The notes beneath the pieces were generated by a model. That model saw only the letters and a program-made list of their open reading frames with translations, made no database searches and had not been told where the DNA came from. Of a stretch of 64,000 bases of DNA, positions 989 through 57,689 are shown piece by piece (the stretch's first letter is position 1; each line of letters starts with the position of its first letter). This stretch comes from Eledone cirrhosa (Eukaryota): NCBI GenBank assembly GCA_964016885.1, contig OZ024750.1:15004001-15068000 (forward strand), given 5' to 3'. The position numbers and the translations under genes are program-made.

Positions 989-1732
989 CTGTACTAAATC
1001 ATAATCTTACTAAACGGTAGGAATCATTGCTTCCCCCCGCCACCTTCAAGCTTTAAAGTGAGTCGTATTGACCCGCATTGTTACGGTGCTTGATTGAAAG
1101 ACAACACAGCATTGGAAGTAGCCAAATAAAGAGATTATATTGAAGACTGTGATTACTTGTCGTCACACTCCATATAATCTGAAATAGACCGAATTATGCA
1201 CGAAAGCAATATGGCTCTGTGCAACTGACAAGTATTTCGTTTTGGGTTAAAACTTCTGTTATGTGAGCTGCTTGGAAAATTATAGTCTTTAACATTTGCT
1301 TTAGATAATCGATATAAAATCTTCAATGAAACACTCACGATCCAATACATAATAGAACTTGCCAACTACAGAGTATTGAACGAATTTGTTAGTTTGGGAT
1401 ATGAAGAGTTGATAAACTAGATTACGTCATATATGGAAGAGAGTTTTTTGTGACTTACTATTCTAAGTTCATAATACCAGCGTTTCGGCGTTCATATATG
1501 AGTATTAGTTTTTAAGTACCAGTATAAGATGAAATGATGTCTAATTGCTTCATGTATATATATATATATATATATAACAATATATAGTAAGAAACACAGT
1601 AAACCGTGTGTCTAAAATTACAAGGGTTGAAAAACCACATATGCTTGAAATATTTAACCAAGAAACAGACAGGATGACAAAATGAAAATAAAAATATATT
1701 ATCATAATACAAACTGCCTCAATAACCATTAT

Positions 1733-1814
1733 ATCTCTCGGACAGATTATCCCTAATCTGTTTCGCCCTGAGTGTGTTTGTAACAGATAATCCTGGGCTT
1801 CATCAGCGAGAGAT
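1733..1814 (-). ncRNA. Type I hammerhead ribozyme (family B, mirror copy)
   Basis: Reverse complement of 2221-2302. Confidence 0.92.
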
Positions 1815-2220
1815 TGCAATTAAATGTCACAAACACTATTTGCCAACGTTCACACAGAAAGATGAATTTATCACCTCGTGCGCCGCCAGTCAAACGTGGT
1901 AAGCGCGTATTGAACAGAAATAACAGTCCAACACGCACAACTTAATAGCTCATCCTGTAAGAGAGCCGCTGTGTTTCTTACTATATATTGTTAATCGGCT
2001 CAGTATTTATTTGTACTTTATACTTAGAGCTTAATGGTTACAGGGTTCTAATTCATATATATATTTCGGCTCTCTTACAGGATGAGCTATTAAGTTGTGC
2101 GTGTTGGACTGTTATTTCTGTTCAATACGCGCTTACCACGTTTGACTGGCGGCGCACGAGGTGATAAATTCATCTTTCTGTGTGAACGTTGGCAAATAGT
2201 GTTTGTGACATTTAATTGCA

Positions 2221-2302
2221 ATCTCTCGCTGATGAAGCCCAGGATTATCTGTTACAAACACACTCAGGGCGAAACAGATTAGGGATAATCTGTCCGAGAG
2301 AT
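2221..2302 (+). ncRNA. Type I hammerhead ribozyme (family B)
   Basis: ATCTCTCG-CTGATGA-a-GCCC...GGGC-GAAA-CAGATTA-ggga-TAATCTG-TC-CGAGAGAT; three paired stems, full core, predicted cleavage after GUC at 2294. Confidence 0.93.
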
Positions 2303-2518
2303 ATAATGGTTATTGAGGCGGTTTGTATTATGATAATATATTTTTATTTTCATTTTGTCATCCTGTCTGTTTCTTGGTTAAATATTTCAAGCATATGTGG
2401 TTTTTCAACCCTTGTAATTTTAGACACACGGTTTACTGTGTTTCTTACTATATATTGTTAATCGGCTCAGTATTTATTTGTACTTTATACTTAGAGCTTA
2501 ATGGTTACAGGGTTCTAA

Positions 2519-6363: not shown

Positions 6364-6586
6364 CTTTATTCTTAACTCTGATGCCGAGAATCATTTGGTT
6401 TCCTAAATAGAATATTAGTCTAATGACTCCATTTATCCCATAAACGTGGTTTTGTCTTTCCACATAATGACGTATTATCTTCGCTTTTTTCCGTTCATTG
6501 CCAAGGAACGTCTTCACGAACCAAAGTATCGTCTTCCTGTTTTCCTTCGATTGCAACTTTTTTTCGAAATATTTACTTCTGCGTTC

Positions 6587-6763
6587 ACAGATTGATTTTT
6601 TTAGTTTCAGAAAATCCCGTTAAGGGTGAAAGCAGCGATTTTTGCTTAAACTTTAATCTATTATTTTGATAAATATTTGCTCTAGGGTTCTTATATATTT
6701 GATATATATTTATCCTTATCGAGCCCTCTTTGGATTTTAGTCTTCAAATTTATTATTATTACT
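6587..6763 (+). mobile_element. Family E hammerhead-like repeat ending in (TA)n (other copies 15470-15533, 28052-28170, 53250-53347)
   Basis: Shared sequence ATCCCGTTAAGGGTGAAAGCAGCGATTYTTTGCTTAAA in four loci, each next to (TA)n. Confidence 0.75.
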
Positions 6764-8045: not shown

Positions 8046-8089
<44 letters not shown>

Positions 8090-8092
<3 letters not shown>

Positions 8093-8263
8093 CGGAGGAA
8101 ATGTGGTAAGGAACCAGGTGGACCATAACGCACCAAAGTACTCAATACTTAGGGTAGTAGAGTGGGTAATAGGAACGAGTAGGACCCCGACGGCTGAGCT
8201 CAAGCCGTTTCATTAGCCGTCGAAACGGCTTGAGCTCAGTCGTCGGGGTCCTACTCGTTCCTA
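8090..8263 (-). mobile_element. Family A PLE-type terminal repeat with inverted 5' arm, in (TA)n
   Basis: Same repeat at 13563, 22301, 29679, 46508, 50878 and 53556; carries hammerhead 3' half GAAA-CGGCT..AGCCG-TC. Confidence 0.85.
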
Positions 8264-8370
8264 TATATATATATATATATATATGTAGGAGGTGAGTTTT
8301 ATTGTAGTACAATAAAGCAATGCAGATATCGGATAAGAAGCACTCTACAGTTTGTAGGACTGGAGTATGC

Positions 8371-12562: not shown

Positions 12563-13562
12563 TATAAAGAGAGAGAGAGAGAGAGAGTGTGTGTCTGTAT
12601 GTTTGTAGGTATGTGCTTCTGTATATATATATATATATACATCCCATGCACATTTGCACATATATATATATATTATACTATACTATATTATATTGTAGCT
12701 AAGTAACTTTGCCTAGTTTTTAGCTGAATGGCATGTATGCAATGGTACATCAATAGACGTATATTTCTAATGCTAATCCAATTTCCCTGAAACTTCCGAC
12801 TCATCTTATGGTTTACATGGCTGACATAAATAATGTACTATTTCTTTATTGACGTTTATTAGCTATATTTTACATTTGTGATTATTCTTTGATATTATAG
12901 ATAATGGATTTTAAGGTCTTCTTCAAAGATAATAATATAGACGTTTTCAGGTTCTGTATTACCCAGTGGGGAATTTTTCTTTCGCCTCATTAATAATAAT
13001 TTTAGTTATACATTTGCGATTAAACGAACGACGCAGTTTAAGCTTAATGGCAAATATTTTCCCAAACCTATTATTTAAATCTTACGTGGGTTATACAGAG
13101 ACTGAATTAACCTGCATTAGCATGTGTGATGACAGTTTTAAAGTAGTTATTCAAATTACAAATATCCTTTTAGGTACGAGGAATCATGTAAATAACAGTC
13201 TTATCCTGTAATGTGATACTTGAAAAAGTTTGATATCGACTGGTATATTACTCCTCTTCTCAGGAAAGCCTTCACAGTGCACTCTAGGTGTGAGTGTATT
13301 TATACTGAAGCAAGTGGACAAGTTCATGTATATCGGAGCCGTTTTCACGAGTTATGAAAGGCACAATAATATAATAAGGCCAGCACAAGGCTAGCAATTA
13401 CCCAGTACATTACTAGTACTTTATTTTATCGACTCCGTAAGGATGAAAGGCAAAGTTAAACCTAGGCGGAATGAGAAGACGTTGTATATCATTGAATCCA
13501 CCATATTTCACATGAATGAAATTTATAATATACAATTCAAAATACCATTATATATATATATA

Positions 13563-13757
13563 TAGGAACAAGTAAGACCCCGACGGCTGAGCTCAAGCCG
13601 TTTCGACGGCTAATTCTGGACGTCCAGAATTAGCCGTCGAAACGGCTTGAGCTCAGCCGTCGGGGTCTTACTTGTTCCTATTACCCACTCTACTACCCTA
13701 AGTATTGAGTACTTTGGTGCGTTATGGTCCACCTGGTTCCTTACCACATTTCCTTCG

Positions 13758-13760
<3 letters not shown>
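13563..13760 (+). mobile_element. Family A repeat with 118-bp perfect palindrome (13563-13680)
   Basis: Arms mirrored about GACGTC at 13619-13624; (TA)n on both sides. Confidence 0.9.
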
Positions 13761-13805
<45 letters not shown>

Positions 13806-15301: not shown

Positions 15302-15539
15302 GTACATACATATATACATACATACACAAAAACACGTGTGCCATTGAACCGTTACGCGAACAAATGCTTCTTAATATTAGGACTACGTGACAAGCTTATA
15401 ATACCACTAGAAAGAGCAGCCAAACGACCGTCTGACACAGCTCAACAAATCATATATATATATATATTTTTTTTCAGAAGATCCCGTTAAGGGTGAAAGC
15501 AGCGATTCTTTGCTTAAAGTTTTTAATCTGTTCTCATAA

Positions 15540-15600
<61 letters not shown>

Positions 15601-22274: not shown

Positions 22275-22300
22275 CATACATACATATATATAAATATATA

Positions 22301-22423
22301 TAACGAAGGAAATGAGGTAAGGAACCAGATGGACCATAACGCACCAAAGTACTCAATACTTAGGGTAGTAGAGTGGGTAATAGGAACAAGTATGACCCCG
22401 ACAGCAGAGCTCAAGCCGTTTCG
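22301..22423 (-). mobile_element. Family A repeat, single arm truncated just 5' of GAAA
   Basis: Homology to 13625-13760; (TA)n on both sides. Confidence 0.85.
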
Positions 22424-46383: not shown

Positions 46384-46507
46384 CATTGTATGTTCTGGAT
46401 CTACTTGTACGACAAATTCGAAAAGCTTCATTCTTTTTAATCTAATTCGGGGGCTCACCAGTAGGCGTGTATAACATCCTATATACATATATATATATAT
46501 ATATATA

Positions 46508-46709
46508 TAGGAACAAGTAGGACCCCGACGGCTACGCTCAAGCCGTTTCGACTGGGCTAATTCTGAGTCCAGAATTAGCCGTCGAAACGGCTTGAGCTCA
46601 GCCGTCGGGGTCCTACTTGTTCCTATTACCCACTCTACACTCTACTACCCTAAGTATTGAGTACTTTGGTGCGTTATGGTCCATCTGGTTCCTTACCACA
46701 TTTCCTTCG

Positions 46710-46712
<3 letters not shown>
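46508..46712 (+). mobile_element. Family A repeat with inverted arm joined in loop II
   Basis: Homology to 13563-13760. Confidence 0.88.
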
Positions 46713-46770
<58 letters not shown>

Positions 46771-50815: not shown

Positions 50816-50877
<62 letters not shown>

Positions 50878-50880
<3 letters not shown>

Positions 50881-51057
50881 CGAAGGAAATGTGGTAAGGA
50901 ACCAGGTGGACCATAACGCACCAAAGTACTCAATACTTAGGGTAGTAGAGTGGGTAATAGGAACGAGTAGGACCCCGACGGCTGAGCTCAAGCCGTTGGA
51001 CGGTTTTAGTCCAGAATTAGCCGTCGAAACGGCTTGAGCTCAGCCGTCGGGGTCCTA
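50878..51057 (-). mobile_element. Family A repeat with inverted arm retaining the probable native stem II
   Basis: GACGGTT-ttagtccagaatt-AGCCGTC-GAAA-CGGCT..AGCCG-TC on the short arm. Confidence 0.87.
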
Positions 51058-52745: not shown

Positions 52746-52898
52746 ATATATAAGAGAGAATGCGAGAGAATGCGTCACCCATTATGAATCTCTCTTTCTC
52801 TCTCTCTCTCTCCCTCTCTCTCTCTCACTCTGTCTCTCTCTCTCTTATATATAAGAGATAATGCGAGAGAATGCGAGAGAATGCGAGAGAATGCGAGA
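51361..52898. repeat. Minisatellite, about 15 units of about 100 bp
   Basis: Unit CGTCACCCATTATGAA-(CT)n-CACTCTGT-(CT)n-TATATATAAGAGAGAATGCGAGAGAATG. Confidence 0.97.
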
Positions 52899-53201
52899 TG
52901 TCCAGAAGGCGGTCCACGAACGGGGTTCGACACTGAAAGCAAGATCCAGTCTTCCGACGGTGACCGAGTCTCGTAGGGAAAGCGGCATCAGCCGCCGTCT
53001 AGTTCGGTATCCTAAGCCGGTTAACGCGGTTTTGATGCGTCCGGAGAACCATCCGCCGAACCTAAGGGACGGGCATGCCAGTGCGGCGTCACGTGATTGA
53101 CGAACAGGAAGAAACGCAAATCGGAAGCCTGCCGCCGCCTGGAGAAATGTCCATCCGTGTCACGATCTCACTAGGCCCGGGGGGACTGGTGAGGGAGACA
53201 T

Positions 53202-53235
<34 letters not shown>

Positions 53236-53257
53236 TGAAATATCCAGTTCTGCGTTT

Positions 53258-53333
53258 ACAGATTGACTTTGTTAGTTTCAGAAGATCCCGTTAAGGGTGA
53301 AAGCAGCGATTCTTTGCTTAAACTTTAATCTGT
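53258..53333 (+). ncRNA. Hammerhead-like fold with CAGAAGA core (family E)
   Basis: ACAGATTGA-(7-nt bulge)-AGTTT-CAGAAGA-tCCC-gttaa-GGGt-GAAA-GCA..TGC-TT-AAACT-TTAATCTGT. Confidence 0.72.
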
Positions 53334-53340
53334 TATTTTA

Positions 53341-53429
<89 letters not shown>

Positions 53430-53494: not shown

Positions 53495-53555
<61 letters not shown>

Positions 53556-53559
<4 letters not shown>

Positions 53560-54102
53560 AACCAGTAAGACCCCGACAGCTGAGCTCAAGCCGTTTCGAC
53601 GGCTAATTCTGAATTAGCCGTCGAAACGGCTTGAGCTCAGCTGTCGGGGTCTTACTGGTTCCTATTACCCACTCTACTACCTCAAGTATTGAGTACTTTG
53701 GTGCGTTATGGTCCACCTGGTTCCTTACCACATTTCCTTCGTTATCTAGCTCCTACTCCCGTAGTAGAGCACTTTCCGACCCTACCACGCCGTATCCAGA
53801 CTTTTCTGCTAAGCTCAATTCATTTCACCCGCACCATGCGAAAACACAACATTGACTTCTCTACCAAGAACATCCCAATCCCACCGAAAAAACTTTACCT
53901 TCGGATGCTCACGCAAAAAATTGATCTATTTGCGAAAAGACTTAGATGGAGAACTTTTTTCTATGACAGAATTAGCCGTCGAAACGGCTTGAGCTCAGCT
54001 GTCGGGGTCTTACTGGTTCCTATTACCCACTCTACTACCTCAAGTATTGAGTACTTTGGTGCGTTATGGTCCACCTGGTTCCTTACCACATTTCCTTCGT
54101 TA
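53556..54102 (+). mobile_element. Compact Penelope-like unit: inverted arm, family A repeat, 5' UTR and ORF start, second family A repeat
   Basis: Direct repeats about 53611-53744 and 53967-54102; (TA)n on both sides. Confidence 0.88.
53836..53967 (+). pseudogene. Truncated N-terminus of a Penelope-like element ORF
   Basis: MRKHNIDFSTKNIPIPPKKLYLRMLTQKIDLFAKRLRWRTFFYD resembles the S.KNIPIP...Y...L..K...F.KR.RW..FF N-terminal motif of PLE proteins. Confidence 0.75.
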
Positions 54103-54984
54103 TATATATATATATATATACACATATATATATATATATATGTACGTGTATATTATAATATTAATTATGCATGTATCTATATATCATAATCCTTTCTATT
54201 CCATACCGTACATTCCTGACTACGAATTCAATACACTTGTGAATTATATCTACACGTTCTCATTTCTTCATATATCCCATGTGCTTTCACCATTAAAGTG
54301 AAACAAAGTGATCTGCTTTATTAATTTATCGTATGTTTAGGTTTGTAAAATGAGCTTACATTAACTGGAAATTGGCCCGTGAAGCCGTAAAAGACTAAGA
54401 GATAAAAAAAAAAATTTCTCAAGTCGGCTTAAAAATGTACCAGATGTCACTTGAGAAGCGATCATATCTTTTTAGTAAGCTACTTTATCCTTCGGTAATG
54501 ATATAACTTATATCTACGTAATATCAACTACTTTGATATGAAGTGTTTGTATATTTATATACCAGATGTTTCCCCAGGTGTAGTTAAGGAAGATTTTGGT
54601 TATTAAAGTATTTTATAACGACTGTAATATACAGAATAAAATAGTGCATGTTATCTGTTCGGATTATATTTGAGAGTAAGAAAAATCAAGTGTTTTAAAA
54701 TAACATGCTTTATACCAAACGTTTAATAAAACGCGTCGAAATACTAAACCTTAACTAGATACTCCTTATGTAATTTTCAAACGATTTAAAACTATATTTA
54801 TATTCAGTTATATTTTATATCAGTTTCTTGATCTTATATTTTACCGCGAATATTTTTATCTGAATAATAATATTTTAGAGTAAGTTGATAGGGTTGCTAA
54901 ATTTTTTTCGAAGATTCGAGTCATTGTCGCAGTTATTTTAAAATTCATTTAACTATTTTTGGTAATCAATAGACATACCTTTGT

Positions 54985-57429: not shown

Positions 57430-57497
57430 TGACGTACATGGAAGTCGAACCCATATCTTTGGTTATCCAGACCACTGTGCTACCATTACACCAACAC
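57430..57497 (-). pseudogene. tRNA-like remnant (probably a SINE head)
   Basis: TGGTGTAATGGTAGCAC...GGGTTCGACTTCC boxes; acceptor stem does not pair. Confidence 0.5.
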
Positions 57498-57689
57498 ATC
57501 ACTCGTCTTTTTCCATTCAAATTAGAAGCTCTAGAACTTAGAGCGTCGAGTAAAATACTTTTCCAACATAATACGAGACAGCAAGTTTATTTATATTTTT
57601 GTCATAAAAATACCGTTAATGTCAGACAAAAGGTTTTAGATCAGACATTCATCTGTATAATAGGTGGATATAATTTATATGAGAAACCG

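What the first reader, a model, noticed from the sequence alone, without database searches (positions are those of the whole stretch)
53556..54102. Compact repeat-ORF start-repeat unit linking family A to a Penelope-like protein
Seen: the family A repeat continues past its usual 3' end into about 90 nt of UTR and an ATG (53836) encoding a KNIPIP/RLRW-type N-terminus. It then jumps directly into loop II of a second repeat copy. The two copies share private variants (CAGCTGTC, TACCTCAAG). Inference: this identifies family A as a PLE pseudo-LTR and shows either a template jump or a roughly 358-nt monomer of a tandem, retrozyme-like non-autonomous element.
Basis: partly seen in the sequence, partly recalled or inferred. 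Interest (0 to 1): 0.72.

Follow-up and report, generated by a model that had tools for sequence, protein, structure and literature searches.

The report
Misjumped copy of Hydra-clade Penelope retrotransposon
This 550-base insertion is a short, rearranged piece of a young Penelope-type jumping gene, likely made when its copying enzyme ran off the front end of the RNA and restarted in the wrong place; it is not a spreading mini-element, but dozens of similar slips in this genome suggest how such elements likely rebuild their end repeats and occasionally give birth to ribozyme-carrying parasites.

Summary
Family A is the end repeat (pLTR) of a young Hydra-clade Penelope-like element: a 3531-bp unit with a 717-aa telomerase-like RT/GIY-YIG ORF and a type I hammerhead with a U3-A8 core. 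The window insertion is an inverted short arm, then repeat + 5'UTR + 45 codons, then repeat, set in (TA)n. It is not a propagating 358-nt retrozyme: it lacks the hammerhead 5' half, and its exact junction occurs twice, on different subfamily backgrounds. It is one of at least 30 loci with differing ORF-start-to-repeat junctions. Short copies (38,820 anchor matches) mostly stop at one boundary in hammerhead loop II, beside TATA/initiator-like motifs; full-length arms never stop there (0 of 63). Best model, inferred: target-primed copying starts near the RNA 5' end and runs off it. It then usually fuses to the opposite arm, sometimes continues correctly into the element's 3' end, and rarely mis-jumps, as here. 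A 7 x 299-bp array with a whole hammerhead elsewhere looks like a retrozyme born this way. Earlier scan notes found Hydra elements and the two-end rule on other DNA of this genome. No RNA evidence was available.

The parts
53498..53557 (.). (TA)n target tract, left flank
   Evidence: sequence
53555..53611 (-). inverted short arm (element -135..-79); its 3' end sits at the short priming site
53611..53744 (+). pLTR copy 1 (element -133..0): only the 3' half of the hammerhead (GAAA at 53623, predicted cut after 53645) plus the 79-nt tail
53671..53696 (+). predicted bulged hairpin just behind the short 3' end
53745..53835 (+). 91-nt 5' UTR of the parent, with a second predicted bulged hairpin at 53749-53770
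53836..53970 (+). first 45 codons of the 717-aa Hydra-clade RT/GIY-YIG ORF; the frame stays open across the joint but has no homology beyond it
53967..53970 (+). 4-nt microhomology joint, ORF +226 to repeat -135
53967..54102 (+). pLTR copy 2 (element -135..0), ending at the long priming site
54103..54142 (.). (TA)n target tract, right flank
   Evidence: sequence

Best explanation
[quoted passage not shown] Shown: the parent structure; two fixed 3' ends (-79 and 0) used one per side; a shared 5' boundary at -145..-131 in hammerhead loop II; scattered joints in the ORF start. Inferred: the boundary is the transcription start (TATA-like motif at -168, initiator-like motif with its A at -139). Inferred: both strands of a cut (TA)n tract prime near the RNA's 5' end, so each cDNA runs off after 55-140 nt, like a retroviral strong-stop product. 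Inferred: on the commonest template (an RNA lacking its far end) the two cDNAs are simply fused head to head, giving family A. Inferred: on a complete template (linear with a terminal repeat, or a hammerhead-cut circle) copying continues into the 3' UTR and rebuilds pLTRs and tandems. Inferred for this copy: the long-site cDNA reached -135, jumped by 4 bases of homology to +226, ran to the 5' end again at -133, and was fused to the short-site cDNA. The product lacks the TATA-like motif and the ribozyme 5' half and is likely a dead end.
For: Parent: four near-identical 3531-bp tandem units; 717-aa ORF; predicted fold (pLDDT 86) best matches telomerase RTs; Hydra motifs. Two ends: 22,881 and 10,333 exact end+TA matches; of 70 long arms, the inverted partner had the short end in 37 and the long end in 1 (5 other, 20 none, 7 sense pieces). 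5' boundary: of those 70 arms, 32 stop at -145..-131, 5 pass it and 33 end earlier; 20 of 30 short arms stop at -141..-133. Template dichotomy: of 63 long-arm rows, 0 stop at -145..-128 upstream, 55 pass and 8 end earlier; of 16 mini units, none passes -142 and 7 stop at -142..-128 (Fisher p = 8e-20). Jump signature: 30 loci with joints at +105..+227 among 417 anchors, against 2 of 164 in the next 150 nt (p = 0.004) and 2 in +415..+915. 10 of the 23 boundary-type joints carry 1-22 extra bases; the rest overlap by 0-5 nt. Two loci join the boundary to -159 and -153, near-miss landings at the unit's 3' end. Precedent: internal initiation at two sites on both strands (PMC11167929); non-templated addition drives R2 template jumping (PMC8857657, abstract only).
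Against: No RNA data, so the start site, the ribozyme activity and the short templates are all inferred. The TATA/initiator match is judged from recalled consensus, and the 29-nt spacing was not tested against a background. The 5' boundary is 12-14 nt wide. The long-arm sample is young subfamily while the short-arm sample is mixed, so the p-value overstates the contrast. 5' ends are not enriched at the predicted hammerhead cut (2 of 70). 3'-UTR landings were not surveyed, and one occurs in the random sample (L251), so the ORF start is not the only landing zone. A 4-nt overlap is also what DNA end-joining leaves. Arms of one insertion share variants (10 of 11, expected 6.1), which fits one RNA but also fold-back copying.
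Confidence: 0.7

Rival explanations
1. A full-length copy inserted here and later lost about 3.17 kb by microhomology-mediated DNA deletion.
For: 4-nt overlap, expected at about 1.7% of random joints in this zone; the same joint recurs at C1:268.76 Mb.
Against: Full-length arms never begin at -145..-128 (0 of 63), yet this copy begins at -133. 23 of the 30 joints have their right end at the -133..-146 boundary, and 10 of these carry extra bases. DNA deletion has no reason to respect that boundary.
Confidence: 0.1
2. The loop II boundary is a structural stall of the RT, not the RNA 5' end, and the inverted arm is made by fold-back self-priming, as proposed in PMC3846280; the joint is a template switch at that stall.
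For: A small hairpin is predicted at -155..-135; the two arms share variants.
Against: The hairpin is weak (-3.4 kcal/mol). Long arms pass the same sequence without stopping. Either end type can sit on either arm, and both arms can exceed one unit (L102), which fits two primings.
Confidence: 0.14
3. The 358-nt unit is a propagating retrozyme-like non-autonomous element.
For: The exact joint occurs at a second locus. Tandem mini-arrays of this family do exist: 7 x 299 bp, about 6 x 274 bp, 2 x 257 bp and 2 x 226 bp.
Against: No hammerhead 5' half. The second copy differs at two sites, each variant also found in full-length-type loci, so it came from another source lineage. No 358-nt array was found, and the joint is in one arm only.
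Confidence: 0.04

Closest known systems
Hydra clade of Penelope-like elements, e.g. Hydra-1_Obim (Craig et al. 2021, PMC8557442; seen: abstract, passages, section 11, supplement passages)
   Same: Single RT + C-terminal GIY-YIG ORF, RWK-type motif (RWR here), DKT, CxCx5C, C-terminal CxxC and CxH, (TA)n target, hammerhead, inverted 5'-truncated arm, one-sided tail.
   Different: Unit 3.5 kb (the paper says generally under 3 kb); U3-A8 core with a large loop II; tail of 79 nt rather than 30-40 nt; short end-products outnumber ORF copies by about 100-240 to 1.
Poseidon element PAc of Anolis (Frangieh et al. 2024, PMC11167929; parts 1-2 of 4 read)
   Same: Two internal RT start sites that define the tail; both target strands extended; AT-rich target; needs RNA downstream of the start sites.
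   Different: The PAc sites lie inside the ORF; here they lie in the 5' UTR, 79 nt apart. In the parts read, no step after the RT reaches the 5' end is described.
Animal non-LTR retrozymes (PMC7229834, passages; bioRxiv 10.64898/2026.07.22.740005, part 1 of 5 and passages)
   Same: About 300-nt non-coding units related to PLE pLTRs; the 7 x 299-bp array L087 fits the definition at sequence level.
   Different: The window unit has half a hammerhead and no array. The preprint proposes birth from a solo terminal repeat plus unequal crossover; the arrays here have RT-type joints to the ORF start.
D. virilis Penelope pLTR promoter (Schostak et al. 2008, PMC2377424; passages)
   Same: The transcript starts inside the upstream pLTR; a partial tandem is needed.
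   Different: [quoted passage not shown]

Membership tests
Penelope-like element (parent) | Telomerase-like RT in a single ORF | tested here: met
   717-aa ORF; YRDD at 348; top Foldseek hits are TERTs, E 4e-8. Pfam and PDB sequence searches found nothing.
Penelope-like element (parent) | C-terminal GIY-YIG endonuclease | tested here: met
   VIY at 591 and YIGLT at 606, conserved in alignment A1; matches the Hydra EN rows of Fig. S7 by eye. Motif level only: no Pfam hit on this protein.
Penelope-like element (parent) | Tandem/partial-tandem pLTRs, inverted 5' arm, one-sided tail | tested here: met
Hydra clade | RWK, DKT, CxCx5C, C-terminal CxxC and CxH; no CCHH | tested here: met
   RWR 37, DKT 117, CxCx5C 572, CxxC 670, CxH 698; no conserved CCHH cysteines inside the EN core by eye; definition.
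Hydra clade | (TA)n insertion | tested here: met
   Nearly all parsed ends abut (TA)n.
Hydra clade | Phylogenetic placement with named Hydra proteins | not tested
   Only compared by eye with Hydra-1_Obim and Hydra-1_Ajap; no tree.
Type I hammerhead (parent pLTR) | Three stems around a conserved core | tested here: met
   The MFE fold is the three-way junction (z -0.42, not unusually stable); the U3-A8 variant is described in PMC4209133; Rfam did not detect the window's half copies.
Type I hammerhead (parent pLTR) | Self-cleavage | not testable with these tools
   No enrichment of copy ends at the predicted cut (2 of 70).
Non-LTR retrozyme (window unit) | Complete hammerhead in each unit | tested here: not met
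   5' half absent.
Non-LTR retrozyme (window unit) | At least two consecutive complete units; dispersed family | tested here: not met
   1.4 units; the exact joint at 2 places on different backgrounds.
Non-LTR retrozyme (window unit) | Circular RNA expressed | not testable with these tools
   No RNA holder listed.
Non-LTR retrozyme (L087 array, elsewhere) | Tandem units each with a complete hammerhead | tested here: met
   7 x 299 bp, 0-1 differences among the six compared in full; its MFE fold is not the active form; seen at one locus only.

The most novel reading that the evidence does not exclude
Hydra-clade PLEs place their promoter inside hammerhead loop II and replicate through a retrovirus-like strong-stop cDNA that is transferred to the RNA's 3' end, which regenerates the pLTR. 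Failed transfers give tens of thousands of palindromic stubs, mis-transfers give mini units like this one, and mis-transfers that keep the whole ribozyme (L087, L174) are retrozymes at birth.
Probability: 0.35. Interest if true: 0.75.

Novelty: new member of a known kind. Interest (0 to 1): 0.47.

Why it matters
The element and its odd insertion shapes are of known kinds, and this copy is probably dead. The value lies in the population of copies. [quoted passage not shown] Here a young family with an intact ORF gives exact coordinates for both priming sites, a candidate start site and many jump joints, so the missing step can be tested directly. It also shows a plausible route from an autonomous PLE to a retrozyme array; the papers read infer that relationship from co-occurrence and phylogeny. 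Seven literature searches returned no paper describing a strong-stop transfer for PLEs; the library lacks most subscription papers.

Tried and rejected
Rfam scan of the window: only a tRNA-like hit. Pfam on the ORF and on alignment A1, and the PDB sequence search: no relevant hit. The repeat finder was swamped by microsatellites. RNA runs: no RNA holder listed. Contigs of four runs (one study, at most two samples): none listed bridges the joint, which proves nothing; summed depth was about 100-fold higher on the repeat than on the UTR/ORF in X2-X4, consistent with the counts but not a copy number. Splicing as the cause of the joint: rejected, no placement within the 4-nt overlap gives GT..AG (read). 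Hammerhead cut as a source of template 5' ends: suggested by L080, L145 and L110 but not enriched in the random sample. A single hotspot at +226: rejected; joints scatter over +62..+227, though 7 lie at +216..+227. Naiad clade: rejected, the EN is C-terminal. Script faults: the partner label was wrong (ends read by eye; redone); one variant pattern failed (redone); one search's Fisher test used 31 loci instead of 30 (redone); one search mislabelled three long rows as mini (L152, L115, L147; left out of both the 63 and the 16), counts one array twice (L034/L151), has one start at an N gap (L100), and missed L251. Six of seven 'sense jump' rows are internal indels or subfamily differences. The supplements of the bioRxiv preprint were not seen and may bear on the origin of retrozymes.

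Full report
Conventions. Element coordinates: 0 is the last base of the usual long 3' end, the ATG is +92, and the unit is 3531 bp. 'Arm' means one sense-oriented piece ending at a (TA)n tract.

1. Observation. The window reads (TA)n, an inverted arm -135..-79 (53555-53611), then -133..+226 (53611-53970), then -135..0 (53967-54102), then (TA)n. The repeat copies are identical over 135 nt at a spacing of 358, and the joint overlaps by 4 nt.

2. The parent. A search of the own genome with the joint region gave 40 scored matches of 1110 candidates, including tandem copies 3531 bp apart. The array at C1:437.2 Mb has units differing by 0-1 base in three full comparisons and a 717-aa ORF. The protein has 2049 relatives among 7996 candidates scored, mostly 39-43% identical. 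Its predicted fold (pLDDT 86) matches telomerase RTs best. It carries the motifs that Craig et al. give for the Hydra clade (PMC8557442 section 11; positions) and resembles Hydra-1_Obim by eye. Pfam and PDB sequence searches were blank. Upstream of the ORF, the parent folds into a type I hammerhead with a U3-A8 core and a large loop II; this core variant is described in PMC4209133. The window copies hold only its 3' half.

3. Family A. A 17-mer at -133 has 38,820 exact matches, against 417 and 164 for two ORF anchors. Ends fall at 0 (22,881 exact end+TA matches) or -79 (10,333). In 70 long arms taken from the first 100 listed places on C1 (the first 30 plus 40 of the rest), the inverted partner had the short end 37 times and the long end once; 5 were other, 20 had none, and 7 were sense pieces. 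This is the known one-sided tail (PMC8557442), explained in vitro by two internal start sites (PMC11167929). Earlier scan notes report the same rule for other families of this genome. The 5' ends pile up in loop II: 32 of 70 long arms stop at -145..-131, 5 pass and 33 end earlier; 20 of 30 short arms stop at -141..-133; 67 of 83 anchor-selected arms stop at -145..-133. A TATA-like motif starts at -168 and an initiator-like motif has its A at -139 (consensus recalled, not tested).

4. The joint class. A gapped pattern found 43 matches at 30 loci with a joint between +105 and +227 (parsed). The next 150 nt gave 2 loci and +415..+915 gave 2. Further joints at +62, +63, +96, +98, +137, +145 and +215 appeared among the first 100 of 153 places with the young UTR motif. 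Of the 30 loci, 23 resume at the loop II boundary, have the joint in one arm only, and in 10 cases carry 1-22 extra bases. The window belongs here. Seven resume further upstream, and five of these have the joint in both arms. The window's exact joint occurs twice. The second copy (L039) starts at +103 and differs at two sites whose variants also occur among full-length-type loci, while the window copy is identical over 360 nt to a copy on C6. The two are best read as independent uses of the same 4-nt overlap, which occurs at only two places in the first 330 nt.

5. Two template pools. Of 63 long-arm rows, none has its 5' end at -145..-128 of the upstream repeat; 55 pass it and 8 end earlier. 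Of 16 mini units, none passes -142 (three mislabelled rows left out, one array counted twice). A stall built into the sequence would act on both groups, so the simplest reading is that most templates end at the boundary, while a minority allow copying to continue. Genomic data cannot tell a linear RNA with a terminal repeat from a hammerhead-cut circle. Two joints from the boundary to -159 and -153 (L087, L174) look like near-miss transfers to the 3' end and favour transfer. The lack of ends at the predicted cut (2 of 70) gives the ribozyme no shown role. One boundary-to-3'-UTR jump (L251) appeared in the random sample, so the landing map is incomplete.

6. Mechanism. Shown: anatomy, two ends, boundary, scattered joints, dichotomy. 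Inferred: promoter in loop II; priming of both target strands near the RNA 5' end; run-off; then fusion, correct continuation or mis-jump. For this copy the inferred order is: prime at 0, copy to -135, jump to +226, copy to -133, fuse with the -79 arm. Why landings cluster at or before +227 is open. Short 5' RNA fragments held by the protein are the likeliest cause, by analogy with the downstream RNA that PAc needs. The rivals are later DNA deletion (0.10), structural stall with fold-back (0.14; self-priming proposed in PMC3846280) and a propagating retrozyme (0.04).

7. Comparison and novelty. The parent is a new member of the Hydra clade by motif tests; no tree was built. The window unit fails the retrozyme definition (PMC7229834; preprint), while L087 meets it at sequence level. 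PMC2377424 names pLTR regeneration as unexplained. Searches returned no account of a strong-stop transfer in PLEs, and two look-ups in the scan's own notes, by sequence and by words, were blank. Papers seen: PMC11167929 parts 1-2 of 4; PMC8557442 abstract, passages, section 11 and supplement passages; PMC4209133 part 1 of 4 and passages; 10.64898/2026.07.22.740005 part 1 of 5 and passages; PMC3846280, PMC7229834 and PMC2377424 passages; PMC8857657 abstract.

8. Verdict. A real but probably dead rearranged copy of a known kind of element. Interest is moderate (0.47) because the family's copies make an open step of PLE replication, and the birth of retrozymes, directly testable.

Noticed in passing
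L087 (G000:C2:356.03 Mb): Seven 299-bp tandem units made of repeat, UTR and ORF start with a complete hammerhead whose loop II is shortened by 18 nt: a retrozyme-like array at a single locus.
   Followed up: partly
L156, L174, L178, L182, L237: Mini units whose joint starts upstream of the boundary (-160 to -208) and appears in both inverted arms, so the joint likely existed in the RNA template (a circle or a transcribed mini unit).
   Followed up: partly
window 8086-8264, 13562-13764, 22297-22423, 29678-29816, 46507-46716, 50874-51057: Six more family A stubs in (TA)n; five are short-arm/long-arm palindromes and none passes -142.
   Followed up: yes
L251 and L318: Both have a piece ending at the same 3'-UTR position (-806) close to a boundary-ended arm; possibly a recurrent RNA 3' end.
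   Followed up: no
L189, L254: Older copies read C at hammerhead core position 3 with A at position 8, a mismatch between the canonical and U3-A8 forms.
   Followed up: no
window 53237-53350 (also 6566-6676, 15472-15548, 28046-28113): A second (TA)n-associated repeat family just upstream, with a hammerhead-like hairpin and GAAA by eye.
   Followed up: partly
window 1575-2460: A 394-nt perfect inverted repeat next to (TA)n, unrelated to family A; probably another fold-back insertion.
   Followed up: no
window 52895-53200: A GC-rich 300-nt island between microsatellites, single-copy in the window, not identified.
   Followed up: no
window 57430-57500 (-): tRNA-like Rfam hit, 45 bits; could be a SINE head.
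   Followed up: no
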